The translations under genes and the position numbers were made by a program. The notes beneath the pieces are model-generated. The model made no database searches. It saw only the letters and a program-made list of their open reading frames with translations, and was not told the DNA's origin. A stretch of DNA of 64,000 bases from a virus, in IMG/VR virus record IMGVR_UViG_3300027833_000035, positions 8,896 to 72,895 of that record. One strand, written 5' to 3'. Numbering within the stretch: the first letter of the stretch is position 1; every line of letters starts with the position of its first letter. Below are positions 17,470 to 40,219 of this stretch, one piece after another.

Positions 17470-17470
17470 A

Positions 17471-18034
17471 TTAACCACCACGGTACAGATATAAATCAAC
17501 TGGTACACATATTCTAAGACTAGAATAGTAGGGGTTAACATGGTGATATGTAAAGCTTGGGAATATCATATAATCCCCAGTTCTTGGTGTTATTGCTTTT
17601 TTATCAAATACATTATTCCACCAATCATCATAACCGCGATTAGCGTTTGTTCTTGGATCTGAGAAAACAATATCACCGCCAGAGTTTTGGTCCTCGGCTA
17701 ATATATAAAACACACCAGACAAATGAGCGCCCGAGTGATTATGTATAGTCATGTTATAATCTTTACCATGACCAGTAATCCACGCTTTCATTTCATGCGC
17801 TTTATAATCTTGGATATGTTTTCCGATACTTGCATAGAGATAGCGGTCAAAAGAGCTATACACCATGTCTTTAAATTTATTCATTTCAGGTGAATTATCT
17901 TTGAATATATTTCCACCGTTTACTTCACCTTCCATGTTATTTAAATCATAGTTAGCAAAGATGTATTCTATCAATCCATCAGTATCAAATTTACCTGAGC
18001 CAATCTTTGTTGGCCACATTTCATTAAATTCCAT
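17471..18034 (-). CDS. Putative 2OG-Fe(II) oxygenase (TIGR02466-like)
   Basis: AWIT...HNHSGAHLSGVFY...GGDIVFSDPR...PRTGDYMIFPSFTYHHVNP...R motifs. Confidence 0.8.
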   Translation of the reverse strand: MEFNEMWPTKIGSGKFDTDGLIEYIFANYDLNNMEGEVNGGNIFKDNSPEMNKFKDMVYSSFDRYLYASIGKHIQDYKAHEMKAWITGHGKDYNMTIHNHSGAHLSGVFYILAEDQNSGGDIVFSDPRTNANRGYDDWWNNVFDKKAITPRTGDYMIFPSFTYHHVNPYYSSLRICVPVDLYLYRGG

Positions 18035-18059
18035 AGCACCTCTCCATAATATATAAATC

Positions 18060-18067
18060 TATTTATA
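18060..18067 (-). promoter_or_regulatory. T4-type late promoter for the oxygenase
   Basis: Exact TATAAATA on the minus strand. Confidence 0.65.
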
Positions 18068-18079
18068 ACATATAAATGG

Positions 18080-18113
18080 TTGACAAATTTACTTCTATAT
18101 GTTATTATAAATA
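18080..18113 (+). promoter_or_regulatory. Overlapping sigma70-like and late promoters driving the plus-strand rSAM operon
   Basis: TTGACA (18080-85), 17-nt spacer, TATTAT (18103-08), overlapping TATAAATA (18106-13). Confidence 0.65.
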
Positions 18114-18139
18114 TATTAGTATATTATGATTGGAACACA

Positions 18140-18604
18140 ATGCTGTTTGAAAACTTTGAAAACTTCCTATTAACAGAAGAATGTTTTAATAACCACGACG
18201 TATCGCATATAGATAACGACGGCAACCAGCATTACCTAGAACATTCAGAATATATTTCTTACCTCGGTCAGGTTACAATTTTACTAGCTAACAGAGCTAC
18301 TATTAAAGTTGAACAAGCCGAGAAACTATTTGACTATAACGATAGGACAATACATTTATTTTATAATGATGTAGACGGTCCATCGTTTAAAGAACATACA
18401 GATCCTGTCGATGTTTTAATAGAATGTTTGGATGGTATAAAGGTTTTGGAAGTAGAAGGTGCTACAGTTATTCTGCAGCCAAACCAAAGCGTTTTTATAC
18501 CTGCAGGAACAAAGCATAGAGCACTTAATAACAAAAAGGCATTAATGATTTCACATGGCATTCGCGACACCGAAACACTTACTCGTATACGTAAAAACGA
18601 CTGA
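18140..18604 (+). CDS. Cupin/JmjC-like putative 2OG-dependent hydroxylase
   Basis: SFKEHTDPVDV...G.K...LQPNQSVFIPAGTKHRA gives an HxD...H triad. ATG 18140 preferred because the track's TTG start is the -35 box. Confidence 0.7.
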   Translation: MLFENFENFLLTEECFNNHDVSHIDNDGNQHYLEHSEYISYLGQVTILLANRATIKVEQAEKLFDYNDRTIHLFYNDVDGPSFKEHTDPVDVLIECLDGIKVLEVEGATVILQPNQSVFIPAGTKHRALNNKKALMISHGIRDTETLTRIRKND

Positions 18605-19583
18605 AACCTGCAATCTAAATTGCGCACACTGCTTTACGTCTGGTATCAATGGTAGAAAAATCTACTTTGATGCTGAGAAGACTGCTAACTGGTGCAATGA
18701 ATTATGCGATGGTAATAACGAAATACATTTTGAATACCACGGTGGCGAACCTATATTAGCTCCTATGGCAGACTTGATGAAGTTCTATAATATTACTAAA
18801 GAACATTGGGGTGACCGATGTACGCATGGTATTACAACTAACTTAGTTTATAAACTTACTGACGAAAGACTTGAGTTTTTAAAAATGTTAGACGGTGGTT
18901 CTGTTGGTACATCTTGGGATCCAAACATTCGTTTCTCTAATGAAAAGCAACGTAAACTATGGGAAGATAACGTCAAACGTTTGGTTGACGAAGGCTGCTT
19001 TGTTAAATGCTTTATATCAGTTTCAAAAGATGTGGTTAAAATGGATCCCATTGAAATTGCTGATTATATGCATTCGCTTGGTGTCGGCGCTATTAATTAT
19101 GAACGATTAACACATGACGGTAATGCAACAATCAACACTGATATTTTTCCACACAACTCTGAGCTTGATGCTTTTTGGATGGATATGCATGAAAAGACTG
19201 CTGACCATCCCGTTTATAATAGTTTCCTTAACACTGTATACGATAAGTTTAGTAAAGGTCAATTCTTTAATGGTACTTTCTGCAGAGACTGCGAGCAAAA
19301 GTTACATACCATCAACGCTGATGGAACTGTAGCCGGCTGCCCTAACACTGCGCCAACACAATGGTATGGTACGATTGATACTCCTGCAAAAGAGGTGCGC
19401 CAATCACCAAAACGTATGGAAGTTATATCATGTGAAATGCATGAAAGAGATCCACGCTGTTATGATTGCCCTGTGTTTATATATTGCCATTCTGATTGTC
19501 ATCAACTTCAATGGATGGGAGACGTCTGTCCAGCTCCTAAAACATTAATGATGAAACTTGCGAAGGATAAAGGATGGATTTAA
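18555..19583 (+). CDS. Radical SAM/SPASM protein (rSAM-1)
   Basis: CNLNCAHC, HGGEP, ITTN; C-terminal CRDC...GCPN...CYDCPVFIYCHSDC...C. Confidence 0.93.
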   Translation: MAFATPKHLLVYVKTTETCNLNCAHCFTSGINGRKIYFDAEKTANWCNELCDGNNEIHFEYHGGEPILAPMADLMKFYNITKEHWGDRCTHGITTNLVYKLTDERLEFLKMLDGGSVGTSWDPNIRFSNEKQRKLWEDNVKRLVDEGCFVKCFISVSKDVVKMDPIEIADYMHSLGVGAINYERLTHDGNATINTDIFPHNSELDAFWMDMHEKTADHPVYNSFLNTVYDKFSKGQFFNGTFCRDCEQKLHTINADGTVAGCPNTAPTQWYGTIDTPAKEVRQSPKRMEVISCEMHERDPRCYDCPVFIYCHSDCHQLQWMGDVCPAPKTLMMKLAKDKGWI

Positions 19584-20614
19584 TTATTAAGCCAACCGAG
19601 GCCTGTAACTTTAAATGTACCTTTTGTTCATCAACTGATATTGATGCTGACAAAGCTGGCTTACTTGATTTAGAATATGTTTATAAATTTCTAAAACGTT
19701 ATCCTGACACCAATACTATTATTGTAAATGGTGGTGATCCATTAATGGTTGATCCAAAATGGTATTGGGATTTGATTGCTCACCTTGACGAACATGATTA
19801 CCCTGCATCAATTAGTTTTACATCAAACCTCTGGCCATTCCTTATTAGACCAGAGAAATGGTTACCTTTATTTCAACACGAAAGATTTGGATGTACTACC
19901 TCATTTCAATATGGTGGTGGAAGATTAAAGGGTGATTACTCTGAGTTTACTGAAAAGGATTTTTGGCGAGTATCAGATGCTATGTTAAAACATACTGGCT
20001 CTCGACCAGATTTTATTTCTGTAATCGTTGATGAAAACTTTGATGATGCTATTAAAAATGTAGAATTAGCGAAAGAGATGGGAGTCGAGTGCAAACTTAA
20101 TTATGCAATGGCTTCTGGTGTTCAAGGCTCTACATTTAGGCTAAGTAAGATATATGAAACCTATATAAAGATATATGATATGGGTTTAGCTGAATACGAA
20201 TATAATACTAAACAAATGATGATAAGGTTAAATAAAAATAGTTGGACTACTTGTCCACAGAATAGACAATGCGATAGTGGTATACGCGCATTTAACCCAG
20301 GTGGTGATTACTATTCATGTGGTTCGTTTGCTGACGATTATGATTACCCTATTGATTTTGAGGAAGAAATGAATGGTGAAATGCAGACACCATTGCAGAA
20401 TGATCCAAATATACAGACAATGAAATCAGCTTGCTATACTTGTCCGATGTTTGATATATGTAATGGTTGTAAAAAGACTGTGCGTGATATGAAACGCGAA
20501 GGTCAAGCTGAGGATCATTGTTATCATATGAAAAAACTAGCACCAAGAATACTTGAAATAAACGGCATGGACCCAGGATTGGCAACACCTTATGTTAATG
20601 AATCTATCAATTAA
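19574..20614 (+). CDS. Radical SAM/SPASM protein (rSAM-2)
   Basis: CNFKCTFC, NGGDP, FTSN; CP...C...GDYYSC...CYTCPMFDICNGC...C. Confidence 0.93.
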   Translation: MDLIIKPTEACNFKCTFCSSTDIDADKAGLLDLEYVYKFLKRYPDTNTIIVNGGDPLMVDPKWYWDLIAHLDEHDYPASISFTSNLWPFLIRPEKWLPLFQHERFGCTTSFQYGGGRLKGDYSEFTEKDFWRVSDAMLKHTGSRPDFISVIVDENFDDAIKNVELAKEMGVECKLNYAMASGVQGSTFRLSKIYETYIKIYDMGLAEYEYNTKQMMIRLNKNSWTTCPQNRQCDSGIRAFNPGGDYYSCGSFADDYDYPIDFEEEMNGEMQTPLQNDPNIQTMKSACYTCPMFDICNGCKKTVRDMKREGQAEDHCYHMKKLAPRILEINGMDPGLATPYVNESIN

Positions 20615-21506
20615 TCCAACATACTATTGTAACTTCGCTTGCGATTTCTGTTACTTAACAACAGAGCAGCTAAACGATAGACATAAAATTACTCCTTTAT
20701 GGTTAGAGAATAGCCTACAACAAATTACTGACGAGGTTGGTCATGTTGATTTATATGGTGGAGAAATTGGTTTACTATCACCGGAGTATTATTATTCATT
20801 AAAGAAAGTAATACGTAATCATTACAAAGGCCCAATTAATATTAATACTAACTTGTCGGCATTCCCTGACTTTTTTAGAGATGAGGATGTAACGTTATCA
20901 GTATCATATGATTTCCATGCCAGAGAAAAAGAGCAGCATGTTTTAAATAATATGATGAATGCCAACAAGGATTTATCTGTATTGATATTAGCCTCGCCAA
21001 AAGTGTTAGAGATGGATGTAGAGTTTATGATTTTTACACTTAATATGATTTCTAATGTTAAATCAGTTGAGATTAAACCATATTCAGTTAATCAGGCAAA
21101 CCAACATAATGTAACTCATAAAGACTTTGAGGATTTCGTTATTAGGTTTGATGAAGCAAACACTGTAAAGAATTTTAATTTTCAAAACATTGATAACATA
21201 TACGATAGCATAGAAGGCAAGTATGACGCATTTAGTAATGACCATGTTTATATAACACCGCGTGGGAAATTTGGCGTCTTGGAATTCGATAAATACGACA
21301 GAGAGTACTTTAAAGAATACGACACTTACCATGAATATCAAACATGGGCACGTGAAGAACCTGAAAACAATTTGAGCGATATATGTAACGTATGTTCTTA
21401 TTATGGGAAATGCTTAACAGAACATTATCGGTATGTACACGACTTAACCAATAGTTGTAATGGATATAAAGGGTTATTAGAATATTATGAAAGAATGGAA
21501 AGCTAG
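20598..21506 (+). CDS. Radical SAM protein with a C-terminal Cys cluster (rSAM-3)
   Basis: CNFACDFC, YGGE, INTN; CNVCSYYGKC...C. Start MNLSINP assumed. Confidence 0.9.
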   Translation: MNLSINPTYYCNFACDFCYLTTEQLNDRHKITPLWLENSLQQITDEVGHVDLYGGEIGLLSPEYYYSLKKVIRNHYKGPININTNLSAFPDFFRDEDVTLSVSYDFHAREKEQHVLNNMMNANKDLSVLILASPKVLEMDVEFMIFTLNMISNVKSVEIKPYSVNQANQHNVTHKDFEDFVIRFDEANTVKNFNFQNIDNIYDSIEGKYDAFSNDHVYITPRGKFGVLEFDKYDREYFKEYDTYHEYQTWAREEPENNLSDICNVCSYYGKCLTEHYRYVHDLTNSCNGYKGLLEYYERMES

Positions 21507-21885
21507 ACAAAGCGCGTATCATTTAACAGCATCTTTATTTAAAGACGATTTAACTGATGTAGAAATTAATTGGCAGCCAGATAATATCGTTGAGGATGCA
21601 CTAACGCATTTCAGACAATATGTTGACGAATGGGTCTACCCTGCAAAATCGTATGTAGTTGCTATATGTTATGCCCATTGGTTAAATAGAGATTTTAAAG
21701 AACCATTCTTTGATGCTCTTAATGACGAAGCCTTATTGTTTAATAATGATCCACACTTTGTTCCATATTGGGCAGACAAAGAAACATATGACGATATACT
21801 ATTTAAATTAGACTTTAACGAAAAACTTGGTATGGTACCTGACATATACGAATATTATAAAGAGGAAATGTTATTTGGACTTTGA
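21487..21885 (+). CDS. Hypothetical protein within the rSAM operon
   Basis: 132-aa acidic/aromatic ORF overlapping both neighbours. Confidence 0.75.
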   Translation: MKEWKARQSAYHLTASLFKDDLTDVEINWQPDNIVEDALTHFRQYVDEWVYPAKSYVVAICYAHWLNRDFKEPFFDALNDEALLFNNDPHFVPYWADKETYDDILFKLDFNEKLGMVPDIYEYYKEEMLFGL

Positions 21886-22951
21886 AATAACAAAAACACT
21901 ATTAGAATCTAAACGTCCGGATATAGCCGAGATTGAGTTGACTTTATTTGAAAACTGTCATCTTAATTGTTCGTTCTGTCATCACGATAAAAAATCTACC
22001 GTAGGTTTGAGTAGGGAAGAGATATTCTCTAAATTGGATTTAGTTGAACAACATGTCATTAAGATGAAAGGCAGAGTTGATATAATCCAAATCAATATGG
22101 TTGGCGGTGAGTTATTCCAAGATAGAATATCAGAATGGGCTTACCCTGTTTACTTTGATTTCCTTGTAGCAATCAAAAAGGTATTTGACGAACATAAGCA
22201 AAAGATTAAAGTTGTGTGGGTAACATCGTTTCAATTTAGCAAACGTGAAAGAGTACAGAAACTACTCGACGACCTAAACGCTGAAGCAATCCCTTCATAT
22301 ATTATATGTTCATATGACTTTGACGGGCGACCAACAAAAGGTCCATACGCTAAAAATATAGAATACTTTGCTGACTATATCGTATCAATTAATATGGTTG
22401 CTACTACTTTGTCAATCAAAAAGTTTATGGCAGACGATGATGAGTATTTCCATTACTTATATGAAAAGTTTGACGAATTCTATTTTGATGATTATATTCC
22501 AGATCGTGGATATGATTATATGATACCATCAGATAGTGAGTACCTCGAGTTTTTAAAATTCGTATACCATAACTATCCAGACATTAATCCTATTAAGGAT
22601 CTCATATATAACGAGAGTAATCACATGCATTGCTTGGCTCTTAATAAGGTTACGATATTCCCAGATAACTCTACATCAAATTGCCGCTGGGATAGATACG
22701 ATCAACGAGATTTTAATACAGAATACAAACCTAAAGATAACGCCGGAATGATGCAAGCATATATGGATGAAAACGGTTGTCTATCTTGTCAGTGGTATAA
22801 TAAGTGTGGATTTAGATGCTATACCCAATGGGATTGGAAAAACAGAGAACGCGATTTACCTGACTGCATAATGAGAATGTGGTTTAATTATATGGACAAA
22901 ACAGGTCAAAATTTGATAACAGGATTTAATTATGATAAAGAAAAAACTTAA
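21875..22951 (+). CDS. Radical SAM protein with SPASM-like C-terminus (rSAM-4)
   Basis: CHLNCSFC, VGGE; C...C...CLSCQWYNKCGFRC...C. TTG start at 21875 after a GAGG SD (track start 21827). Confidence 0.9.
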   Translation: MDFEITKTLLESKRPDIAEIELTLFENCHLNCSFCHHDKKSTVGLSREEIFSKLDLVEQHVIKMKGRVDIIQINMVGGELFQDRISEWAYPVYFDFLVAIKKVFDEHKQKIKVVWVTSFQFSKRERVQKLLDDLNAEAIPSYIICSYDFDGRPTKGPYAKNIEYFADYIVSINMVATTLSIKKFMADDDEYFHYLYEKFDEFYFDDYIPDRGYDYMIPSDSEYLEFLKFVYHNYPDINPIKDLIYNESNHMHCLALNKVTIFPDNSTSNCRWDRYDQRDFNTEYKPKDNAGMMQAYMDENGCLSCQWYNKCGFRCYTQWDWKNRERDLPDCIMRMWFNYMDKTGQNLITGFNYDKEKT

Positions 22952-23651
22952 ACTTGATTTTTATACATCACACAAAACGCTTATAGAATTACAACCAATT
23001 CAATCTAGAACTAAACCACCATCATGGTGGAAGTCTATTAAGAATTCGTATAGCCAATTTAGGTCTAGGGCTGGTACTAAAGTTCCAACTCCAACGGTTA
23101 AAACTTGTCCTGGGATTGTTGATTATATTCGCAAACCTATTGTTCTTAAACTATGGTCGGATGGTATTTTTAAAGTAAAACCAAACGGTGATGTTGAATG
23201 TATTGAACCCTTACAAGGATCTGGCATACTTGATGGATCTCAACATGAACGTAGACAATTTGGTGATACATTATATCCAAACTGTACTGTATTTAAACTA
23301 CATGGTCCATGGTCAGTTAAATCAAGTGAACGTAAAGAGTTTATGATTACTGAATGTCATTACACTGAAGATTTGCGTAAGCATGGTATTTTAATCTCAC
23401 CTGGGATTACAAACTTTTATGACCAACATACTTTAAACTGTTTTTTAGTATTTCCAATTAAAGACGAAGAATATACTGTAACGCTTAAATATGGTACACC
23501 TATTATGTCAATATATCCAATGCACGAAATGGAACTTGATATTAAAATGCATGAGGTAGCTACACGTCAGGAATGGCAAGAAATACAAAACGTATTCCCA
23601 TCAACCTTTATCGGTCGTTATCACTCCCGGAAACACACACGCGGTAAGTGA
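22932..23651 (+). CDS. Hypothetical phage protein
   Basis: PSWWK...TVKTCPGI.DY...KLHGPW...ISPGI...GTPI pattern; last gene of the plus-strand operon. Confidence 0.7.
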   Translation: MIKKKLKLDFYTSHKTLIELQPIQSRTKPPSWWKSIKNSYSQFRSRAGTKVPTPTVKTCPGIVDYIRKPIVLKLWSDGIFKVKPNGDVECIEPLQGSGILDGSQHERRQFGDTLYPNCTVFKLHGPWSVKSSERKEFMITECHYTEDLRKHGILISPGITNFYDQHTLNCFLVFPIKDEEYTVTLKYGTPIMSIYPMHEMELDIKMHEVATRQEWQEIQNVFPSTFIGRYHSRKHTRGK

Positions 23652-24629: not shown

Positions 24630-25767
24630 GGTAAACCTCATCATCATATAAACCAATTACATCTTTATTTAAAATACATTCTTTTCTTCCATCAAATACG
24701 GTATCCATAATCATTGGAACCATTCTATTCACGCATATATTTAAATACTTACAATCGCCGCATTCTTTGCTTCCACTATTTTCAATCTGTTTAACAACGA
24801 TTTCGTCTTTCTTTTTTAGAATATAATCAGTTATATCCGCGTCAGGCAGCATCAACCAACCATTATCAACTTTAAAATCATCTGTATGGATCTGAGCATT
24901 CTCATATATGAATGGAGACAAATACATATCACCGTGGTATATACTGACTACCGAATAATGAAATGCTTTATGTGATACATCACCTTGTAAGAAATGGAAT
25001 TTGTTTTTAAACTTATGTGGATCTGCAGCCAACCGAGTTAGCATATCGTTCCATTCAAATAGTTTATTTCCATGTTTTGCACTATGATTAAAAGAACGTA
25101 CTACTGATGGCAATACTTCAATAACAGTTTCATACCTACTCCTAACAAACTCAATGGCAGGGAATAGTATATCCTCTACACCTTGTACGATATTAGTAGC
25201 CATACTTATTTCAAAGTTTAAAGAACTATTCTTAAACGTTTCAACTCTTTCGTCGAGTGCATCTAAGTATACTTGATCGTTCATTAATCTATTTAAATCC
25301 AAAGCGATTTGTACATCCCATGCTTCAACGACCTTACCCAGCGGTGAGTTTTCAATAGATTTTATCTTACCCTCAATATCCTTTTCAGATAATGATCCAA
25401 GTATAGAACAGTTATGTTGGATATTTCTATTATCCTCAGGCATCATTAATATAGCATCAGCAAGCCTTTGATTATTAATAATCTCTTCTAAATTTTGAGC
25501 ACCATAAAAGTCAGTAGGTCCGATTACAATATCGTCCAATACAACATCAGTTCTATCTTTTAATTCATACGCCAAGGAATGAAACGTTGCGATTGAGTTT
25601 GGGTTCCAATTACCTTTACGTTTAACAAAACAACCCGGACACATATATGAACAGCCTTCAAGTATTTCAAGGTTGACTTGTATTTTATATTCTTTCATAT
25701 TGTCGATTGAAGTAAATTCCTCACCACGTCCACCGTCTACAATATTTTTCCAATCATTATTTAACAT
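24613..25767 (-). CDS. Divergent radical SAM protein, GPTD paralogue group (rSAM-8)
   Basis: EILEGCSYMCPGCF, IGPTDFY, YLSPFIYE; CGDCKYLNIC...C. Confidence 0.85.
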   Translation of the reverse strand: MLNNDWKNIVDGGRGEEFTSIDNMKEYKIQVNLEILEGCSYMCPGCFVKRKGNWNPNSIATFHSLAYELKDRTDVVLDDIVIGPTDFYGAQNLEEIINNQRLADAILMMPEDNRNIQHNCSILGSLSEKDIEGKIKSIENSPLGKVVEAWDVQIALDLNRLMNDQVYLDALDERVETFKNSSLNFEISMATNIVQGVEDILFPAIEFVRSRYETVIEVLPSVVRSFNHSAKHGNKLFEWNDMLTRLAADPHKFKNKFHFLQGDVSHKAFHYSVVSIYHGDMYLSPFIYENAQIHTDDFKVDNGWLMLPDADITDYILKKKDEIVVKQIENSGSKECGDCKYLNICVNRMVPMIMDTVFDGRKECILNKDVIGLYDDEVYHGNSY

Positions 25768-26914
25768 ATGATATATCCTTTAAACGTTTTAGTTCTGGGT
25801 CGTCGTCATCAGTAACCAAAAACTTTTTACGATAACCATTCTTATCGTTTTCAACTGAATAGCCATCCCATTCATACATTGTTTGAGCAGGACCATTATA
25901 GTTGTTTATATTATTTAGCATATTCTCTTTAGGAGCAATGCAGCGATCTACTCCGAGGTAATCCCTTAACATTATTATTTTTCTATTATAACAACTAAAG
26001 AACAACGGACAATCCTCACACTCAGTTCCTTTTGCTCTTTCAATTTGATGTTCAACCATTGGAACAACGTCATTAAAAGATTTTACTTTAAACATATCAT
26101 CGTATATAGCCATGTTCTCATACATGAATGGACTTAAATACCATTCACCACGTTTATAGTTTAACACAGTGTAATTAATACCTGCATGAGAATGGTCTAC
26201 CATAATATTGTTTAGCTTTGACTCTTGGTGCCATGTGCTAAAGTATTCATTAAACTCATCGAGTGTCTTTAAGATTATGTTTGCTTTATGAGAACGAGAT
26301 ACTGACGGAATAAAATCCAATATAGTATCAAAACGTTTTACTGCTTGATCGTGTAATGCTTCATAATCTAATCCATAATCTTTAATATTAACAACAAACG
26401 TATAAGTAACCTCATGCATAATATGTTTATCTATATAAGCTAACATATCTGATATATGTTTCGTGTATTCATCAGTAAAGAATTTATGTGGATTTGTAGC
26501 GATACCAATTTCTATTTCAGTATCGAGGTTAATGTTATCCATAAGAAAATTACAGAACTTTTTAATATCACCATCAATAAGAGTTGACACAAAAGCTAGG
26601 ATAGGAGAGTTTTCATTAATAATATCTACGAGTTCTGGCATTACTTCATAGAAATTTTCTGATGCCAAAAAGTCTGTTGGACCGATTAATATTTCATCAA
26701 CAAGTATTCCTTGGTCAGTAATCGAACGTATAAACTCTTTTGCCATAAATATTTGGCTTTTATCGCTAGCGTTCCCCCGTCTATGTACAAAGCACCCAGG
26801 GCACTTGTGGTGACAACCGTCTAGTATATCCATTTGAATTTTGACGGCACTGACGGGCTTAGTTTGGGTCTCTGTGGTCATCTCATAATAGAGATTATTT
26901 TTAATCAGAGGCAT
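25757..26914 (-). CDS. Divergent radical SAM protein, GPTD paralogue group (rSAM-7)
   Basis: DILDGCHHKCPGCF, IGPTDFL, YLSPFMYE; CEDCPLFFSC...C. Confidence 0.85.
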   Translation of the reverse strand: MPLIKNNLYYEMTTETQTKPVSAVKIQMDILDGCHHKCPGCFVHRRGNASDKSQIFMAKEFIRSITDQGILVDEILIGPTDFLASENFYEVMPELVDIINENSPILAFVSTLIDGDIKKFCNFLMDNINLDTEIEIGIATNPHKFFTDEYTKHISDMLAYIDKHIMHEVTYTFVVNIKDYGLDYEALHDQAVKRFDTILDFIPSVSRSHKANIILKTLDEFNEYFSTWHQESKLNNIMVDHSHAGINYTVLNYKRGEWYLSPFMYENMAIYDDMFKVKSFNDVVPMVEHQIERAKGTECEDCPLFFSCYNRKIIMLRDYLGVDRCIAPKENMLNNINNYNGPAQTMYEWDGYSVENDKNGYRKKFLVTDDDDPELKRLKDISYVK

Positions 26915-27923
26915 ACATATATTCCTTCAATGCGACGCAGTTATCTAATCCTCGCGACTCCATATATAAATGTATATTACGTTCAGCACAGCTCATCATA
27001 TATTTGCAGCCATTACAATCATCAACCTGTTGAGCATATTCAATATTATCATATAAAGTATTTGCATCCATCGTTGTTTCAAAATTTGGAGTTCTTTGAA
27101 TAATAACATCATATAAGAATGGATTTAAATATAGTTTATTATTATAAAAGCTATAGTTTTGGCAGCCATATCCATTAAACTTTGCATCAAAGAATGTATA
27201 AAGATTAAGCCATTTTTTATCAATGTTTTGCTCAACCATTTCGCGTCTAAAGTTTGCTAGGTGCTGTTCCACCTTACCGCGTGCATTCCTATCTGTTAGA
27301 AACGACGGCGTAATTATAACTGGTGCATTATAATCATCAAATATTCGTTGACATAAATCATTATAGCCGATACGTTTAAATACATCTTTATGGTAATTAA
27401 CTCTAAATTGAACTGAACCTAATTCAAACATTTTGAGTTTACGGTTCCAATCGTCTAGTTCTCCATCAAGGTACTTATCTATATCTAAAACGATTTTAAA
27501 ATCAATATCAGGTACTCTGTGAATGCCTTCGTATAAACTCCAAATCTTATCGAGCTTATCCTTTATTTCAGCATATGGTTGAAGTAACGTTGATGTAAAT
27601 CCAACTGCCGATATTTCATAAAGCTTTTTCATATATGGATGGTTCATAATCTCGTAGAAGTTCTCTGCGTCAAAAATGTCAGTAGGACCAACCGTTATTT
27701 CGTCAGGATAATAAGAACCATTAATTAAAAGATTATAAAGCGTTTCTAAATTATCAGCCTTAGTAAGGTTCTTACGTGGAATAAAACAACCTGGGCACGA
27801 CTGAGCGCAGCCATGTAATATGTCTAAGTTTATTTCAGTACGTAAAAAGTCTGTATTAATAGGGCTTTTATTTTCATCATACGTATAGTAACCTGCGTAT
27901 GTTTTATTCAGTTTCACTGTCAT
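26901..27923 (-). CDS. Divergent radical SAM protein, GPTD paralogue group (rSAM-6)
   Basis: DILHGCAQSCPGCF, VGPTDIF, YLNPFLYD; CNGCKYMMSC...C. Start MTVKL assumed. Confidence 0.85.
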   Translation of the reverse strand: MTVKLNKTYAGYYTYDENKSPINTDFLRTEINLDILHGCAQSCPGCFIPRKNLTKADNLETLYNLLINGSYYPDEITVGPTDIFDAENFYEIMNHPYMKKLYEISAVGFTSTLLQPYAEIKDKLDKIWSLYEGIHRVPDIDFKIVLDIDKYLDGELDDWNRKLKMFELGSVQFRVNYHKDVFKRIGYNDLCQRIFDDYNAPVIITPSFLTDRNARGKVEQHLANFRREMVEQNIDKKWLNLYTFFDAKFNGYGCQNYSFYNNKLYLNPFLYDVIIQRTPNFETTMDANTLYDNIEYAQQVDDCNGCKYMMSCAERNIHLYMESRGLDNCVALKEYMYASD

Positions 27924-28740
27924 TAGTATTGGCCTCGGCTTCCGATTGAATATCAGCTTTAATGTCAGCCTCGATTTCCTCTTCAGTTTTTGGTTTTGGA
28001 ATATCAACACTAATAATAAATCCAGGAGGCATCATTGATAAAATGTTATTTGTAATATTAGCTTGTGTCAATACATAAAACAAATCTTTACCAAAGTATG
28101 CTGGCTTATCGTTATACATTTGTTTATTATATTGCATTTTAAATCCAAGCATAGAACAAACTAATAGGAAACCATCCCAACCGTCAGTAAGGAGACGCGC
28201 AACGTTTGGACCACACACTGTTGGTTTATCAACTACTGTAATTTGGTCAACTGCGTCTTTTACTTCAATTTCAATTGCTTTGTTTTCATCTGATAAATTT
28301 TCGTGGAATTTACAGATTACGAATGGAATAAGTTCAGCCATGTTATTACAAACTTCATCAATCAAATCAATATGTTTATCAACAAAATCGTGTAACTGAT
28401 CTTTACTAAATATGTCAAGTAATTGCTGTTCTAAACCATTAAACTCATATCTATATCTAGCTTTAATAGCCATCACAACAAACCGTGATAGGAAAGGGCT
28501 ATCAATAATAAAGTCTGATTTAATATATTCCAACAACAAGTCTTCATCGACTTGAGCAAAAGTTGTTTTAAAGTTAGTGTTTGCTAAATAAATTAGAATA
28601 TGTTTAGCTGACAGCTTTTCTTTAGATGCCAAATAATCTACCCATAAAACAAAATCTTCATCTTCTTCTTTTACCTTATAGATCTCAACTAAATTCTGAG
28701 GTGCTAATGGTAAAGTATATATATTTTTTTCTTCACTCAT
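27904..28740 (-). CDS. Hypothetical protein within the rSAM operon
   Basis: 278-aa helical-looking ORF with an acidic tail, overlapping the downstream rSAM gene. Confidence 0.75.
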   Translation of the reverse strand: MSEEKNIYTLPLAPQNLVEIYKVKEEDEDFVLWVDYLASKEKLSAKHILIYLANTNFKTTFAQVDEDLLLEYIKSDFIIDSPFLSRFVVMAIKARYRYEFNGLEQQLLDIFSKDQLHDFVDKHIDLIDEVCNNMAELIPFVICKFHENLSDENKAIEIEVKDAVDQITVVDKPTVCGPNVARLLTDGWDGFLLVCSMLGFKMQYNKQMYNDKPAYFGKDLFYVLTQANITNNILSMMPPGFIISVDIPKPKTEEEIEADIKADIQSEAEANTNDSETE

Positions 28741-28755
28741 AATAAAATCACTTTC

Positions 28756-29859
28756 TTATATCAATGGGTATTTATGAATTAAATATGGTATTCTGTTTTG
28801 GCGTTTTGAAAAGAACTGAACATCTGTATTGATTAACGCTAAGTCTTCTCTAATATTATCTGTGTTAAAGTTTCTTTCTAAAACCTTTTTAACGATAGGG
28901 AACACATTATTGATTTCAGTATATAGATCCATGTATTCCCAACCATCCGCTGTAGTATCAGCTTTGTTTTGGTGAACCGCAATAAAATCAGCATCGTCTT
29001 TAACTTTATTCCATAACTCTTCTAATAAGTAAAACGCAAGTGTGTAGTTAGATTTATTAGCAGCATTTACATATACATCTTTAAAGAATTGTTTTTTGTC
29101 TGTAGCCCAATCATTCGCGTCAGTTGCATTGGCATTCATATAATCAATGACTGACATAATGTATGCTGAATAGTGACGACGTGAAGTAAAGTGTTCCATA
29201 ACATCTCTTGCCATAACTGGTGAATGGATAGTAAACTTCTCAACGATTAATTCTGAAATCGGTGTACATGGATAAAAATCATTTAAGAAGAACAATAAGT
29301 CATAACTAAAGTTTTTACCATTTTGATATGTAATTACCCAAGGTGTTTCGCCTTCAGCATTTAATAAAGTATTCGTGTGGTTTCTAACATCGTTATAAAC
29401 TGTTGAGTCACTCATTAATGATAATACTAAATCTTGGTTAATCACTGCTTCCATATAATGGGCAGTCATAGAATTAATTGTTGTTGCATCGGCATCAGGG
29501 TAGAAACCAGAGGCTGTTAATAATCCAGCGGTATATTTAGCAAATACTTTAATCATATCCTCTTCGTCTGTAAACATAAGGATACGTTTATCACTGTTTT
29601 GAATATAGTCAGCATTAGCAACGTCTTCCCATTGCTCAAAATCCAATAGTGAAGCAGCATTAGAACGTGCGTTATTTGCCAACAATTCGTATTCAGCAGG
29701 CTGAAGGAATGCATCTTCAATATCAGGATGAACGATTGTAATTCTTCTTGGCTCAGCAGTATGATAAAAAGAATTTAATTCACCAATTACTGTTTCAACG
29801 TTTTGCGTATTTGTAATATACTTTTTATTATTTAAGTAATATAAACTCTGTCCAATCAT
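28756..29859 (-). CDS. Hypothetical protein within the rSAM operon
   Basis: About 367 aa; start MIGQSL overlaps the upstream stop (ATGA). No motif recognised. Confidence 0.75.
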   Translation of the reverse strand: MIGQSLYYLNNKKYITNTQNVETVIGELNSFYHTAEPRRITIVHPDIEDAFLQPAEYELLANNARSNAASLLDFEQWEDVANADYIQNSDKRILMFTDEEDMIKVFAKYTAGLLTASGFYPDADATTINSMTAHYMEAVINQDLVLSLMSDSTVYNDVRNHTNTLLNAEGETPWVITYQNGKNFSYDLLFFLNDFYPCTPISELIVEKFTIHSPVMARDVMEHFTSRRHYSAYIMSVIDYMNANATDANDWATDKKQFFKDVYVNAANKSNYTLAFYLLEELWNKVKDDADFIAVHQNKADTTADGWEYMDLYTEINNVFPIVKKVLERNFNTDNIREDLALINTDVQFFSKRQNRIPYLIHKYPLI

Positions 29860-31031
29860 AATTTTGCTCCTAATTTTTCTATTGCGTCGTCGTTCCAAGT
29901 GAAATCGTATGGATTATATTCAGCAAGAACATCTTTGTTCAATACACAGCCATTAACATTTAATGATTCTTGGGCTTCAAAGATCAGTCTACTTGCGCAG
30001 GCAACTGCGAATTTACAGTCAGCACAGTCTTTTACTTTACTCGACTTATTTATACCTTTTGTTACTAATTCATTTTTACGATCTAATATTTCTTCGAATG
30101 TTAAACCAGTAACATCTAAATTTTTATTACCTAAGAAAAACGCTTGTTCATGTAGCATTACATTTAGGTGTGTGGTTGGACCATTTTCTCCTGGAACAAT
30201 TGTAAGTCCAACAAAGTTAATTGAGTTACAATAAAGATTAGCCATTGACATAACAGTTTCTTGTGCGTTATCTTTATCAATAACTCTACCAAGGAAATCG
30301 TTCCATCCAAACAAATTCTTTCTTTGAACCAATTGTGAGTTTGCCCTAGAAAAAGCAGGGTTCATTTCTACGATTGTTTCATATTCATTTACAGATTTTT
30401 GGATAATCTTATTGTATGTTTCTTTATCAATCTTTTTGCCAACAACGTTAGAAGCCTGAAGTGTCCACGACCAATCCATTTGTTTTGGCGTATTGTTTTT
30501 AAAGAACTCTACCTTTTCCATAACGTTATCAAAGTATTCATCATCATTTAACATCTGCTCTACTCTGCCGATTGGCATAATAAATTCGATAATCATTTCG
30601 CGGCGATACTTATCTTCATCGTCAAGTACAGCAAAGATTTCTTTTACTTTATCCATAGTTGCTAAATCAAATTTAGCAGGTGCCGCGATACGAGCTCCGG
30701 TATGTTCTCTCATAATCTCTTGGACTACTGAGTTATTTAATACTGACTCTGTATTCTTGGCAGTGAAAAAGTCTGTTGGTCCAATAACGAATTCTCTTAG
30801 GTTAAGGCCAGTTCTTTTTACACCATCGGCAAGTTCTTTTGCTCTATCAATAATTTGTTGGTTCATAGCAGGGTCAATGTTTTTATCAACGAAACAACCT
30901 AGGCAGCCGTGATTACATCCAGCCAAAACTTCCATTTGAATTAAAACATCAAACTTAGTAGCATCCGAAGGTGTTAGACTTTCTGGTCCTGAGTACCTCA
31001 TTTGCTTACAATATGATTTTTGCATTGACAT
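29856..31031 (-). CDS. Divergent radical SAM protein, GPTD paralogue group (rSAM-5), adjacent to the putative substrates
   Basis: EVLAGCNHGCLGCF, IGPTDFF; CADCKFAVAC...C. Start MSMQKSY lies 1 nt after the stop of 31033-31413. Confidence 0.85.
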   Translation of the reverse strand: MSMQKSYCKQMRYSGPESLTPSDATKFDVLIQMEVLAGCNHGCLGCFVDKNIDPAMNQQIIDRAKELADGVKRTGLNLREFVIGPTDFFTAKNTESVLNNSVVQEIMREHTGARIAAPAKFDLATMDKVKEIFAVLDDEDKYRREMIIEFIMPIGRVEQMLNDDEYFDNVMEKVEFFKNNTPKQMDWSWTLQASNVVGKKIDKETYNKIIQKSVNEYETIVEMNPAFSRANSQLVQRKNLFGWNDFLGRVIDKDNAQETVMSMANLYCNSINFVGLTIVPGENGPTTHLNVMLHEQAFFLGNKNLDVTGLTFEEILDRKNELVTKGINKSSKVKDCADCKFAVACASRLIFEAQESLNVNGCVLNKDVLAEYNPYDFTWNDDAIEKLGAKL

Positions 31032-31032
31032 G

Positions 31033-31413
31033 TTATCTTCTTCCTCTCGAACTGTGACAACTACTATGGCAGCTGGCATGACAGTAATAAGCATTGATTG
31101 TTCGGTTACTCATTCTGCCTTCTATTAAGTCGACTGTTCTTCTAGTTAAATCTTCTAATGTATCAACAATATCTTGTGCGTAAATTATCTGACCTGAATT
31201 AATGCCACCATCTACATAGTTATTATATACATAATAGTTTGCATTCACAAATTCAAATCTATGATAATGCCATTGGCCTGTGGTATAACTTGTAACACCT
31301 GTACCATTAACATATGCGTTAACATAAATTCCAACATTTCTATCAAACGTTCTTAATTGTTGTCCACCATACGTCATTACATACGAATTAACGTCACCTC
31401 TATCCATAGTCAT
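31033..31413 (-). CDS. Putative rSAM substrate/precursor B (126 aa, C-terminal YYCHASCHSSCHSSRGRR)
   Basis: Paralogue of the upstream gene; TAATG overlap with it; Tyr-rich with a CHxS repeat tail. Confidence 0.8.
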   Translation of the reverse strand: MTMDRGDVNSYVMTYGGQQLRTFDRNVGIYVNAYVNGTGVTSYTTGQWHYHRFEFVNANYYVYNNYVDGGINSGQIIYAQDIVDTLEDLTRRTVDLIEGRMSNRTINAYYCHASCHSSCHSSRGRR

Positions 31414-31793
31414 TAGCGGCGACCTCGCGAGCTATGACACGATGAGTGACAACTTGAATGGCAGTAATATGCGTTAATAGTTCTATTTGATAATCTTCCT
31501 TCAACCAAATCAACAGTCCTCCGTACGACGTTACGAATTGAATCAATAACATTACCTGAACGAATAATTCCGCCGGTGTATATACCACTAGACATATACC
31601 CATTATAATAAGAATATGAAGCGTTTACAAACTCGAACCGTGTATAATGCCATTGGCCTGTGGTATAACTGTATCGTCCACCGTTTGCATATACATAAGC
31701 ATTAATATAAAACCCAACGGTCTTATCAAAGGTTCGTAATTGTCGACCACATTGAGTCTGTAAACTACTATTTAACTGTGCATAACTTGGCAT
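31413..31793 (-). CDS. Putative rSAM substrate/precursor A (126 aa, C-terminal YYCHSSCHSSCHSSRGRR)
   Basis: Starts 1 nt after the tail-fibre stop codon; three tandem CHSS units. Confidence 0.8.
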   Translation of the reverse strand: MPSYAQLNSSLQTQCGRQLRTFDKTVGFYINAYVYANGGRYSYTTGQWHYTRFEFVNASYSYYNGYMSSGIYTGGIIRSGNVIDSIRNVVRRTVDLVEGRLSNRTINAYYCHSSCHSSCHSSRGRR

Positions 31794-31794
31794 A

Positions 31795-40211: not shown

Positions 40212-40219
40212 TATTTATA
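40212..40219 (-). promoter_or_regulatory. T4-type late promoter upstream of the fibre-precursor-rSAM unit
   Basis: Exact TATAAATA on the minus strand, 38 nt upstream of ATG 40173. Confidence 0.75.

What the first reader, a model, noticed from the sequence alone, without database searches (positions are those of the whole stretch)
17471..31793. Phage-encoded RiPP-like maturation island: nine radical SAM proteins, two oxygenases and two CHSS-repeat substrates attached to the tail-fibre operon
Seen: nine ORFs with CxxxCxxC and C-terminal Cys clusters, two 2OG/cupin oxygenases, four unknown ORFs and two paralogous 126-aa genes ending in (CHxS)3-RGRR, all within ~14 kb in the middle of a T4-like structural module. 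Established: rSAM/SPASM enzymes next to short Cys-rich or His-x-Ser-repeat proteins are the hallmark of RiPP maturase loci (ranthipeptide/sactipeptide thioethers, triceptide cyclophanes, His-Xaa-Ser and CXXX-repeat systems). Inference: the phage post-translationally modifies its own late proteins, probably virion or fibre-tip components, with an unusually large enzyme set. I know of no characterised system of this kind, but I cannot exclude annotated homologues.
Basis: partly seen in the sequence, partly recalled or inferred. Interest (0 to 1): 0.95.

Follow-up and report, generated by a model that had tools for sequence, protein, structure and literature searches.

The report
Phage radical-SAM kit for Cys-His-tailed proteins
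A marine T4-like phage carries, behind its giant tail fibre, nine radical-SAM enzymes and two iron oxygenases built around two small proteins that end in the same nearly unchangeable 16-residue Cys-His tail, a virus-only gene kit found in hundreds of phages that probably rebuilds that tail chemically and that no paper I found describes.

Summary
All 17 genes are at the stated coordinates: 9 of 9 candidate enzymes carry CxxxCxxC plus a C-terminal CxxCx5C...C cluster.

The five enzymes without a Pfam match fold like SPASM peptide and protein maturases in a model of one of them, rB5 (ChlB Z 14.0, anSME 13.8).

The two 126-aa proteins end in (C-H-x-S)3-RGRR. Their tails differ at 20 of 48 nucleotides but at only 1 of 16 residues.

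The tail always travels with the enzymes:
- 47 of 47 IMG/VR loci found with the tail protein hold the enzymes.
- 5 of 5 loci from genome bins do too.
- 12 of 12 cultured phages that hold the enzymes (RSL2, Atu_ph07, Phosso and others) hold a tail protein.
- 18 of 18 enzyme-seeded loci that reach the expected place hold the tail gene.

A tail profile finds 566 protein clusters. Their bodies differ, but 149 of the best 150 have three repeats.

The bodies evolve as fast as the fibre (53-57% identity), the enzymes slowly (68-86%).

My best reading (0.55) is that the tails are dedicated substrates of a late, multi-enzyme maturation linked to the fibre. No modification has been shown. Virion location was not verified here.

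The kit is not a member of the HXS, ranthipeptide or anSME families.

This scan has found the same kit before on other DNA.

The parts
17471..18034 (-). 2OG-Fe(II) oxygenase (TIGR02466-like)
   Evidence: PF13759 E 2.7e-13, 50.6 bits against cut-off 27. phrog_81 E 3.1e-25. TIGR02466 39.8 bits, below its cut-off of 62.5. TATAAATA at 18060-18067 (-) lies just upstream.
18080..18604 (+). Small cupin with an HxD...H triad, a probable Fe(II) oxygenase. It is always paired with rA1. The likely start is ATG 18140.
   Evidence: Cupin_2 32.2 bits against cut-off 27.2, and a weak JmjC_2 match. The cupin-rA1 pair sits directly beside the tail gene in L040-L049, RSL2, Phosso, DT01 and Atu_ph07. TATAAATA at 18106-18113 (+).
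18555..19583 (+). rA1, a SPASM-type radical SAM enzyme and the most constant neighbour of the tail gene
   Evidence: CNLNCAHC motif. NCBIfam best matches are DarE 1.9e-14, CbpB, DynA, HxsB and anSME, all far below their family cut-offs; SPASM domain 25.7 bits against 27. The profile hits anSME 4k37 at 1.9e-9, then CteB, ChlB, TigE and YydG.
19574..20614 (+). rA2, a SPASM-type radical SAM enzyme and the most conserved enzyme of the kit
   Evidence: PF04055 39.7 bits, which passes the cut-off. DynA 1.9e-12 and anSME 1.9e-10. 54-61% identical in 15 cultured-phage records.
20592..21506 (+). rA3, radical SAM enzyme
   Evidence: CNFACDFC motif and C-terminal CxxCx5C...C. PF04055 25.7 bits, below the cut-off. 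Orthologues in RSL2 gp077, Phosso, DT01 and Atu_ph07.
21487..21885 (+). u132, a conserved small protein of unknown function and part of the core kit
   Evidence: phrog_20737 E 3.3e-33. Orthologues in 27 distinct locus sequences and in RSL2 gp081, Phosso, DT01 and Atu_ph07. No NCBIfam family, only one spurious Pfam match below its cut-off, and no Atlas hit.
21827..22951 (+). rA4, radical SAM enzyme
   Evidence: CHLNCSFC motif and a C-terminal Cys cluster. Median 86% identity across related loci.
22932..23651 (+). u239, a fast-evolving unknown protein
   Evidence: phrog_7084 E 3.4e-18. Median 49% identity.
23601..28010 (-). rB1 (23601-24656), rB2 (24613-25767), rB3 (25757-26914) and rB4 (26901-28010): four paralogues of a divergent radical SAM family with GPTD in place of GGE
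   Evidence: CxxxCxGC, GPTD and C-terminal CxxCx5C...C are invariant in all five rB paralogues. All match phrog_31457. No Pfam family passes its cut-off.
27904..28740 (-). u278, a fast-evolving unknown protein with an acidic C-terminus
   Evidence: No family in Pfam, PHROGs or NCBIfam. Syntenic in all marine loci; median 49% identity.
28756..29898 (-). u380, a fast-evolving unknown protein
   Evidence: No Pfam or PHROGs family, and only one chance-level NCBIfam match far below its cut-off. No Atlas hit. hhalign against the rB profile gave nothing. Median 56% identity.
29856..31094 (-). rB5, a divergent SPASM-type radical SAM enzyme directly downstream of the tail genes. The likely start is ATG 31031.
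   Evidence: AlphaFold pLDDT 81.1, pTM 0.83. VIA-align: ChlB Z 14.0 (rmsd 4.8, 306 aligned), anSME 13.8, SuiB 13.5, CteB 13.2, TigE 12.6; viperin 11.6 and MoaA 11.4. Foldseek: CteB 8.9e-6.
31033..31413 (-). chssB, a 126-aa protein ending in CHASCHSSCHSSRGRR
   Evidence: phrog_35144 matches through the C-terminal half only.
31413..31793 (-). chssA, a 126-aa protein ending in CHSSCHSSCHSSRGRR
   Evidence: 190 relatives at E <= 0.01. The tail is invariant in 27 of 27 aligned. The model has a helix, a long hairpin, a helix and a disordered tail. No fold match.
31795..32235 (-). C-terminal ~145 residues (2650-2795) of the 2795-aa fibre protein, a domain that co-travels with the kit
   Evidence: It is the only part of the fibre that matches the gene upstream of the kit in L036-L041 and L048, and in Phosso and Atu_ph07 at 32-33% identity. 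No Pfam or PDB match.
40212..40219 (-). T4-type late-promoter-like TATAAATA upstream of the fibre-tail-rB gene string. A second copy at 31860-31867 (-) lies 67 nt before chssA.
   Evidence: The motif is not enriched overall: 15 found against 9.9 expected, and 9 of 100 shuffles reach 15. However, 14 of 15 lie on the coding strand, most of them just upstream of ORF starts.

Best explanation
The island is one copy of a conserved, virus-borne maturation cassette. Its centre is a small protein, here in two tandem copies, whose body evolves fast. Its last 16 residues, (Cys-His-x-Ser)x3-Arg-x-Arg-Arg, hardly change.

I read that tail as the dedicated substrate of the neighbouring enzymes. These are a cupin-type Fe(II) oxygenase plus rA1 as the core pair. 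They are joined by rA2, rA3 and rA4, one to five rB-type SPASM radical SAM enzymes, and one to three 2OG oxygenases.

The enzymes would abstract hydrogen atoms and rebuild the Cys, His and Ser side chains. Candidate chemistries are thioether or carbon-carbon cross-links, a Cys-to-formylglycine type oxidation at the last C-x-x-x-R unit, and hydroxylation. The result would be a rigid, chemically unusual C-terminal knob.

The genes appear to be late genes. The finished protein most likely works with the tail fibre, as a tip or accessory component that meets the host.

Shown here: the anatomy, the strict genetic linkage, the enzyme class and the selection pattern. Inferred: that the tail is the substrate, which chemistry applies, and where the protein ends up.
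For: 1. Linkage from the tail side. 47 of 47 IMG/VR loci found with the tail protein hold radical SAM homologues next to it. So do 5 of 5 loci from genome bins.

2. Linkage from the enzyme side. rA1 and rA2 hit the same 15 of 50,697 phage records, which are 12 phages. All 12 encode a tail protein: 9 by tblastn and 3 by ORF scan; RSL2 was also checked by hand. Of 80 rA2-seeded IMG/VR loci, 18 contain the tail gene. The other 62 end before its expected place.

3. The tail is selected as protein. The two window copies differ at 20 of 48 nucleotides and 13 of 16 codons, but at 1 residue. Of the best 150 of 566 cluster representatives, 149 have three repeats; the endings are RGRR 137, RSRR 7, RIRR 3 and RNRR 1.

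4. The same tail sits on different bodies of 58-453 aa, median 191. It is therefore a portable module.

5. Enzyme class. rA1's best profile and structure matches are peptide and protein maturases. rB5's best fold matches are ChlB, anSME, SuiB, CteB and TigE at Z 12.6-14.0, against viperin 11.6 and MoaA 11.4.

6. Rates. Tail proteins have median 53-57% identity and the fibre 58%, while the radical SAM enzymes have 68-86%. That is the pattern expected of host-facing proteins served by conserved enzymes.

7. Fibre link. The tail genes directly follow the fibre gene here. The fibre's last ~145 residues recur in the gene upstream of the kit in L036-L041, L048, Phosso and Atu_ph07. One tail-bearing protein, P0240, has a Gly_rich_2 domain (43 bits against cut-off 24.3) and a 'tail fiber assembly' PHROG match.

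8. Precedents for radical SAM enzymes maturing folded proteins: HxsA by HxsB/C/D (PMC13128918; abstract and section 9 read) and CrpA by CrpC (PMC13692751; abstract read).

9. Weak support for expression. Contigs of four seawater metatranscriptome libraries cover most of 16500-32100 at 90-99% identity. DNA carry-over is not excluded.
Against: No modification has been observed; everything rests on gene neighbourhood and family resemblance.

Three Cys plus three His is also what a metal or Fe-S site looks like.

No RRE domain, leader peptidase or exporter was found in the cassette.

Similarity of the enzymes to characterised maturases is low: all NCBIfam scores are far under the family cut-offs.

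The Z scores of rB5 for peptide maturases exceed those for viperin and MoaA by only 1 to 2.6 units.

The fibre link is not universal: L044-L049 have no fibre gene beside the tail gene.

In RefSeq, RSL2 gp065 is labelled 'virion structural protein', but the tail protein gp068 is only 'hypothetical protein'.

The late-promoter motif is not statistically enriched.
Confidence: 0.55

Rival explanations
1. The tail is a metal- or iron-sulfur-binding module and is not covalently modified. The tail proteins would then be cluster carriers or scaffolds that feed the many Fe-S enzymes next door. Alternatively they would be metal-stapled structural knobs, like the His-metal sites known in T4 fibre tips (recalled). 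The radical SAM enzymes would act on something else.
For: Three Cys and three His at fixed spacing, invariant across 149 of 150 representatives. The tail is disordered on its own in the model, as a metal site without its metal would be. Nine enzymes that each need two or three clusters create a real demand. Nishimura et al. noted that marine T4-like genomes rich in radical SAM genes also carry Fe-S assembly genes (PMC5332604, passage read).
Against: The fourth position of each repeat is Ser in 399 of 449 repeat units, and the R-x-R-R end is kept. A plain Cys/His metal site does not need either. Carrier proteins are not expected to have bodies that evolve as fast as a tail fibre, or several unrelated bodies. 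No match to IscU, NfuA or A-type carrier families appeared for the tail proteins at E <= 0.1.
Confidence: 0.2
2. The enzymes modify another protein, such as the fibre's conserved C-terminal domain or u278/u380. The Cys-His-tailed proteins would be adaptors or chaperones that bring the enzymes to that target, or that help the fibre fold, as T4 gp38/gp57-type helpers do (recalled).
For: The fibre C-terminal ~145-residue domain co-travels with the kit in several lineages. The tail genes sit where T-even phages keep fibre-assembly or adhesin genes (recalled). P0240 matches a 'tail fiber assembly' PHROG. u278, u380 and u239 are as fast-evolving as the fibre.
Against: Nothing in a chaperone role explains a 16-residue end that is invariant across phages whose rA1 enzymes share only 36-46% identity with the window's. 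L044-L049 keep the kit and the tail protein without an adjacent fibre gene.
Confidence: 0.12
3. The folded protein is only a scaffold. Its C-terminal residues would be converted into a small diffusible product, such as a cofactor, metal chelator or toxin, and then cut off. This is how mycofactocin and PQQ are made from peptide ends (recalled).
For: The core lies at the extreme C-terminus. The enzyme set of several SPASM radical SAM enzymes plus oxygenases resembles cofactor pathways. The number of enzymes is large for a structural finishing step.
Against: No peptidase or exporter was found in the cassette. The bodies are diverse and fast-evolving, which is odd for a mere scaffold. The gene position behind fibre genes and the late-promoter-like motifs fit a structural role better.
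Confidence: 0.08
4. The radical SAM genes serve nucleotide, DNA or cofactor metabolism, for example DNA hypermodification or general Fe-S 'auxiliary metabolism'. Their closeness to the Cys-His proteins would then be incidental.
For: Phage radical SAM enzymes are known in thymidine hypermodification (PMC8989533, search listing only). rA3 and rA4 give only unspecific N-terminal matches to viperin and MoaA. RSL2 has a dihydrofolate reductase gene inside its island.
Against: The linkage with the tail gene holds in every informative locus and phage. The best matches of rA1 and rA2 and the best fold matches of rB5 are peptide and protein maturases. The island lies in the structural-gene region, not the replication region.
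Confidence: 0.03

Closest known systems
HXS antiphage system (HxsA effector with His-Xaa-Ser repeats, matured by radical SAM enzymes HxsB and HxsC with HxsD; Li et al., Nat Commun 2026, PMC13128918; abstract and section 9 read)
   Same: Several radical SAM enzymes mature a folded protein, not a short peptide. The target region is a run of short His-x-Ser repeats rich in basic residues. In HxsA a +8 Da change was mapped to one SHRSS unit. The window's tail also contains three H-x-S units and ends in Arg residues.
   Different: HXS is bacterial and works against phages; this kit is phage-borne. The repeats here carry an invariant Cys before each His and lie at the extreme C-terminus. There are 4-9 enzymes plus oxygenases instead of two. 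The family models fail: HxsB 33.8 bits against cut-off 370, HxsC 23.3 against 267.9, and no HxsA or HxsD match at E <= 0.1.
Crp system of Methanococcus voltae (SPASM radical SAM enzyme CrpC installs ranthionine thioethers on the Cys-rich protein CrpA; PMC13692751; abstract read) and ranthipeptide/sactipeptide maturases (CteB, PapB)
   Same: SPASM radical SAM enzymes cross-link Cys residues spaced a few residues apart, in Crp on a protein-sized substrate. CteB is among the best fold matches of rB5 (Z 13.2) and among the sequence matches of rA1.
   Different: PapB scores 28.8 bits against a cut-off of 340. No RRE domain was found. The tail has only three Cys, each fixed next to His. Oxygenases are part of the kit. 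It occurs in viruses.
Anaerobic sulfatase-maturating enzyme (anSME/AtsB), which converts Cys or Ser in the C/S-x-P/A-x-R motif of a folded sulfatase to formylglycine (motif recalled)
   Same: It is the best solved-structure match by sequence for rA1 (4k37, E 1.9e-9) and second by fold for rB5 (Z 13.8). Like rA1, it has no N-terminal recognition domain and acts on a whole protein. The last tail unit, C-H-x-S-R, has Cys and Arg at the same spacing as the sulfatase motif.
   Different: Scores are far under the family cut-off: 33.6 and 40.3 bits against 349. There is no sulfatase in the island. The first two repeats have Cys, not Arg, at +4. Many enzymes serve one tail.
Radical-SAM-rich marine T4-like viral genomes noted by Nishimura et al. 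2017 (PMC5332604; passage read), and the cupin/radical SAM/2OG genes listed in the RSL2-like jumbo phages FLC6 and S13 (PMC8066314, PMC11898562; passages read)
   Same: For FLC6 and S13 these are the same genes: the papers' cupin (gp70) and Fe-S oxidoreductase/radical SAM (gp71) genes match the cassette found in those two records. For Nishimura's genome I infer it, because a T4-like marine genome with 12 radical SAM genes fits; that genome was not examined here.
   Different: Those papers read the genes as Fe-S-related auxiliary metabolism or as accessory genes of unknown function. In the passages I read, none mentions the Cys-His-tailed protein or links the enzymes to it.

Membership tests
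Radical SAM superfamily | CxxxCxxC cluster motif near the N-terminus | tested here: met
   9 of 9 candidates.
Radical SAM superfamily | Pfam PF04055 at or above the gathering score | tested here: inconclusive
   Only 1 of 9 passes (rA2, 39.7 against 29.5 bits). rA1 22.2, rA3 25.7, rA4 17.3 and rB3 17.1 are below it. rB1, rB2, rB4 and rB5 have no PF04055 hit.
Radical SAM superfamily | Partial TIM-barrel fold like solved members (tested on rB5 as the stand-in for the five rB paralogues) | tested here: met
   Model pLDDT 81, pTM 0.83. Z 12.4-14.0 over 288-306 residues to ChlB, anSME, SuiB, CteB and TigE. GGE is replaced by an invariant GPTD.
SPASM/twitch subfamily | C-terminal auxiliary-cluster Cys motif; TIGR04085 at or above 27 bits | tested here: inconclusive
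   CxxCx5C...C is invariant in both paralogue sets. TIGR04085 scores 25.7 bits for rA1 and 23.1 for rA2, just under the cut-off of 27. The best fold matches of rB5 are SPASM enzymes.
HXS / His-Xaa-Ser system (HxsA-D) | Matches to the HxsB and HxsC equivalog models, and to the HxsA and HxsD models | tested here: not met
   HxsB 33.8 bits against cut-off 370. HxsC 23.3 (rA2) and 16.5 (rA3) against 267.9. No HxsA or HxsD model matched the tail proteins or the small unknown proteins at E <= 0.1.
Ranthipeptide/sactipeptide (SCIFF, CteB/PapB) systems | PapB/CteB-family maturase with an RRE domain, and a short Cys-rich precursor | tested here: not met
   PapB 28.8 bits against cut-off 340. No PqqD/RRE family appeared in any island protein. 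The precursors are folded proteins of 126 aa or more. Only the fold resembles these systems.
Anaerobic sulfatase maturase (anSME) | TIGR03942 at or above 349 bits, and a sulfatase substrate with C/S-x-P/A-x-R | tested here: not met
   33.6 bits (rA1) and 40.3 (rA2). There is no sulfatase gene in the island. The C-H-x-S-R spacing of the last repeat is only a resemblance to a motif that I recall.
Classical RiPP pathway | Short precursor with leader and core, a leader-recognition (RRE) element, and proteolytic release of the product | tested here: not met
   The precursors have structured bodies and range over 58-453 aa. No RRE and no protease family was found. Whether the tail is ever released was not testable.
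CXXX-repeat peptide system (NCBIfam; recalled) | Precursor and maturase match the family models | tested here: inconclusive
   No such model matched the tail proteins at E <= 0.1. For rA1 only the best 25 of 45 matching families were shown, so a weak maturase match cannot be excluded.
Crp (CrpA/CrpC) protein-thioether system | Sequence relationship to CrpC and CrpA | not tested
   No Crp model or sequence was available in the libraries used. Only the abstract was read.
Virion / tail-fibre component | Protein detected in purified particles | not testable with these tools
   The Atu_ph07 virion proteome (131 proteins) is in Supplementary Table S5, which is closed. The RSL2 paper is not held. Earlier notes of this scan say that a relative is in virions; I could not check that.

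The most novel reading that the evidence does not exclude
Large phages run their own multi-step radical-SAM and oxygenase pathway to turn the end of a virion protein into a cross-linked Cys/His 'warhead'. It would be mounted at or near the fibre tip and would take a direct part in infection, for example as a metal-dependent or covalently reactive (aldehyde or thioether) contact with the host envelope. This would be the first enzymatically built non-canonical chemical group on a virus particle. It would also be the viral mirror image of the bacterial HXS defence, which uses radical-SAM-matured His-x-Ser repeats to stop phage DNA entry.
Probability: 0.25. Interest if true: 0.95.

Novelty: new variant of a known kind. 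Interest (0 to 1): 0.85.

Why it matters
Enzymatic post-translational chemistry on phage particles is almost unexplored. Here a phage spends about 14 kb on it, and distant phages keep the same 16-residue target unchanged. That argues for an important and so far unknown step in making or using the infection apparatus.

The kit is common: 566 tail-protein clusters and 336 rA2 stretches in IMG/VR. It is present in cultured phages of harmless hosts, such as Sinorhizobium phage Phosso, so the question can be tested directly.

It would enlarge the small set of radical SAM enzymes known to act on whole proteins. It would also give new cross-linking chemistries, and explain the 'radical SAM-rich' marine T4-like genomes that were read as Fe-S auxiliary metabolism.

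Tried and rejected
Searches with the window's own sequence:
- Megablast of the island against 50,697 phage records gave no match.
- tblastn with chssA against the same records gave no match. The low-complexity filter and divergent bodies probably hide the cultured homologues, which I found through the enzymes instead.

Fold and family of the tail protein:
- Foldseek against the PDB and BFVD, and VIA-align against 48,161 chains, gave nothing usable (best E 0.033, best Z 5.2).
- The profile against PDB sequences gave only a chance hit at E 0.22.

Other proteins of the island:
- Pfam and PDB searches of the fibre's last 201 residues found nothing.
- hhalign of u380 against the rB profile found nothing.
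- rB against rA1 profiles gave only probability 6.9%, so I tested the rB family by fold instead.
- The ESM Atlas gave no usable hit for u132 or u380.

Fused forms: the 'longer' protein search found only two tail-bearing proteins of 224 and 234 aa, and no fusion to a long fibre.

Complex prediction: rA1 with chssA, SAM and three 4Fe-4S clusters gave no verdict (score 0.19, mark 0.32; controls not run). This is neither for nor against binding.

RNA libraries: contigs leave some bins thin or empty, for example 18303-18903 and parts of 32126-34500. Contigs cannot rank genes, so I draw nothing from this.

Late promoter: TATAAATA is not enriched over shuffles, so I use its positions only as a hint.

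Literature:
- Seven searches found no paper on the Cys-His tail or on a function for the kit. The motif-string search returned only unrelated German text and chemistry.
- The RSL2/RSF1 paper (Virology 2016) is not held.
- Supplementary tables, including Atu_ph07 Table S5, are closed, so the virion status claimed in earlier notes of this scan could not be checked.
- Counting annotated features suggests the Atu_ph07 tail gene lies near gp170-178, at the edge of a gene block that the paper calls rich in virion proteins. That is my count, not a finding.

Full report
WHAT IS THERE

The window is part of a 72.9-kb IMG/VR viral contig estimated to be about one third complete. It belongs to an uncultured marine T4-like myovirus. 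Portal, terminase, sheath and sheath-stabiliser genes lie at 2403-10692. The sheath is 39-42% identical to those of cultured T4-like phages. Four giant fibre-like genes fill 31795-63848.

- A divergent promoter region near 18050-18120 separates a 2OG oxygenase on the - strand from a + strand string: cupin, rA1, rA2, rA3, u132, rA4, u239.
- From the other side, the fibre gene is followed on the - strand by chssA, chssB, rB5, u380, u278, rB4, rB3, rB2 and rB1. Their gaps or overlaps are a few bases.

ARE THEY RADICAL SAM ENZYMES?

All nine candidates have CxxxCxxC, and all nine have a C-terminal CxxCx5C...C cluster.

Pfam by itself is weak. One of nine passes the PF04055 cut-off, four score below it, and four have no PF04055 hit.

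rA1 and rA2 resemble peptide and protein maturases. Their NCBIfam matches are DarE, DynA, CbpB, HxsB, anSME and PapB, with E values from 1e-14 to 1e-6, always far under the family cut-offs. A profile of 16 rA1 orthologues hits anSME, CteB, ChlB, TigE and YydG among solved structures.

The five rB paralogues share an invariant GPTD where GGE is usual. They match only phrog_31457, a family of unknown function. I therefore modelled rB5 from 36 sequences (pLDDT 81, pTM 0.83). Its best structural matches are ChlB (Z 14.0, 306 residues), anSME (13.8), SuiB (13.5), CteB (13.2) and TigE (12.6). These lie ahead of viperin (11.6) and MoaA (11.4). Foldseek agrees.

The nearest relatives are enzymes that act on peptides and proteins, not on nucleotides or cofactors. 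rA3 and rA4 give only unspecific N-terminal matches.

THE TAIL PROTEINS

chssA and chssB are 62% identical. Their last 16 residues differ at one residue, yet at 20 of 48 nucleotides and 13 of 16 codons. The identity is therefore kept by selection on the protein, not by recent gene conversion.

The family is large. 190 proteins match at E <= 0.01 in the near-length search. Among 27 diverse members, 13 of the 16 tail positions (Cys, His, Ser and the RGRR end) are invariant and only the x of each repeat varies.

A profile of the C-terminal 63 residues from 36 sequences finds 566 clusters at 50% identity with E <= 0.001, and 86 with E <= 1e-10. Among the best 150:
- 149 have exactly three C-H-x-x repeats.
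- The endings are RGRR 137, RSRR 7, RIRR 3 and RNRR 1; two look truncated or frameshifted.
- Position 4 of the repeat is Ser in 399 of 449 units, Asn in 33 and Ala in 14.
- Lengths run from 58 to 453 aa, median 191.

The 126-aa marine form is therefore a minority. The common form is the ~190-aa protein typified by RSL2 gp068.

The bodies differ between classes. Only the last ~60 residues, a helix plus the tail, are alignable. One locus has four repeats (L054).

The model of chssA is a helix, a long hairpin with a variable tip, a helix and a disordered tail (pLDDT 81). It has no fold match.

No fusion of the tail to a long fibre protein was found.

LINKAGE

This is the core result.

From the tail side:
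- 47 of 47 IMG/VR loci have radical SAM homologues next to the tail gene.
- A scan of one genome from each of 185,579 species found only 5 loci, all on metagenome-bin contigs. All 5 have the enzymes. The kit is essentially virus-borne. I did not resolve whether the Bdellovibrio-type bins are phage DNA or cellular DNA.

From the enzyme side:
- rA1 and rA2 hit exactly the same 15 of 50,697 phage records. These are 12 phages: RSL2, RSF1, RsoM3USA, FLC4-4C, FLC4-5C, FLC4-11C, FLC6, FLC8, S13, Phosso, pPa_SNUABM_DT01 and Atu_ph07.
- All 12 encode a tail protein. In the four I inspected, it lies directly after cupin and rA1.
- 336 IMG/VR stretches encode an rA2 relative. Of the best 80 loci, 18 contain the tail gene. 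The other 62 stop inside the island, or too close to its edge, on the side where the tail gene is expected. No informative exception was seen.

The constant core is: cupin, rA1, tail protein, two unknown proteins, rA4, rA2, rA3, u132, and at least one rB-type enzyme in most lineages inspected. The marine lineage of this window has expanded this to five rB enzymes and two tail proteins.

WHERE THE PRODUCT WORKS

This part is inference.
- The tail genes directly follow the fibre gene here and in all near relatives.
- In more distant loci (L036-L041, L048), and in Phosso and Atu_ph07, the gene before the kit shares only one thing with the window's fibre: its last ~145 residues. That domain has no Pfam or PDB match.
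- Across 29 related loci the tail proteins (median 53-57% identity), u380 (56%), u278 (49%) and u239 (49%) evolve like the fibre (58%). The radical SAM enzymes stay at 68-86%.
- One tail-bearing protein has a glycine-rich domain and a 'tail fiber assembly' PHROG match.

Against a universal fibre link, L044-L049 have the kit without a neighbouring fibre gene.

T4-type late-promoter motifs stand before the oxygenase, before the cupin string, before the fibre gene, and 67 nt before chssA. The motif is not enriched overall.

Contigs from four seawater metatranscriptome libraries cover most of the island at 90-99% identity. This fits expression but does not exclude DNA carry-over.

MECHANISM

I commit to this reading: the tail is the substrate of the enzymes (0.55).

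The reasons are the strict two-way linkage, a portable and invariant 16-residue module on changing bodies, enzymes of the peptide- and protein-maturase kind, and two recent precedents for radical SAM enzymes maturing whole proteins. The precedents are HxsA with His-x-Ser repeats (PMC13128918) and CrpA with ranthionine cross-links (PMC13692751).

Which bonds are made is open. Options are Cys thioethers, His-to-Ser type carbon-carbon links, formylglycine at the last C-x-x-x-R unit, and hydroxylation by the cupin or 2OG enzymes.

The main rival (0.20) is a metal or Fe-S binding tail without covalent change. It explains the Cys and His, but not the conserved Ser, the R-x-R-R end or the fast-evolving bodies.

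Further rivals:
- An adaptor or chaperone role, with another protein as the target (0.12).
- A scaffold for a small released product (0.08).
- Nucleotide or cofactor metabolism (0.03).

COMPARISON AND NOVELTY

The kit works like a protein-directed, RiPP-like maturation system. It fails the membership tests for HXS, ranthipeptide/PapB, anSME and classical RiPP pathways.

Published genome papers list the enzymes as accessory genes of unknown function, or as Fe-S metabolism. In the passages I read, none mentions the tail protein. Seven literature searches found no description.

This scan has met the same kit repeatedly on other DNA. Those notes gave me the HXS and Crp papers, which I read. They also claim that a cultured relative of the tail protein is in virions. 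I could not verify that, because the supplements are closed and the RSL2 paper is not held.

I rate the kit a new variant of a known kind, namely radical SAM maturation of proteins. The new setting is viral, multi-enzyme and probably virion-directed.

Noticed in passing
window 13613-16655: Just outside the island lie a 266-aa fusion of a cytidylyltransferase-like domain with a mannose-6-phosphate-isomerase cupin, and two unknown proteins of 410 and 347 aa. These two are syntenic with the island in many loci (p410, p347). This may be a sugar-nucleotide pathway that travels with the kit.
   Followed up: partly
window 16685-17414: Two tandem small DUF7936 proteins (111 and 129 aa) sit between the sugar genes and the oxygenase. 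They are conserved in the same place in L044-L049 and in many rA2-seeded loci.
   Followed up: no
window 31795-63848: A run of giant fibre-like ORFs (2795, 701, 1291, 1566 and 4014 aa) takes up half the window. None of the two tested (2795 and 701 aa) has a Pfam family.
   Followed up: no
L053 and L055 (genome-bin contigs labelled Bdellovibrio/Bdellovibrionaceae), L054 (Bacteriovoracia): The kit occurs on contigs binned with predatory bacteria. There the tails end in CH-G-A-RGRR, or have four repeats. I did not determine whether these are phage contigs mis-binned or a cellular version.
   Followed up: partly
L050 18941-19477 (RSL2 gp073): A dihydrofolate reductase gene is inserted in the middle of the RSL2 version of the kit, between the rA4-like and rA2-like genes.
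   Followed up: no
P0240 (453 aa, metagenomic): This is a tail-bearing protein whose body is a Gly_rich_2 domain (43 bits against cut-off 24.3) with a 'tail fiber assembly' PHROG match. It is the only tail protein with a named domain among the 10 tested.
   Followed up: partly
window 29856-31094 and 18080-18604: The mechanical ORF starts are probably too early. rB5 likely begins at ATG 31031, one base after the chssB stop. The cupin likely begins at ATG 18140, after the TATAAATA at 18106.
   Followed up: partly
PhiRP12/PhiRP31 (paper PMC5468394): Other Ralstonia jumbo phages are reported to carry a cluster of radical SAM, Fe-S oxidoreductase, MoaA-like and MgoB-like genes. They were not hit by rA1 or rA2, so this may be a different radical SAM island.
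   Followed up: no
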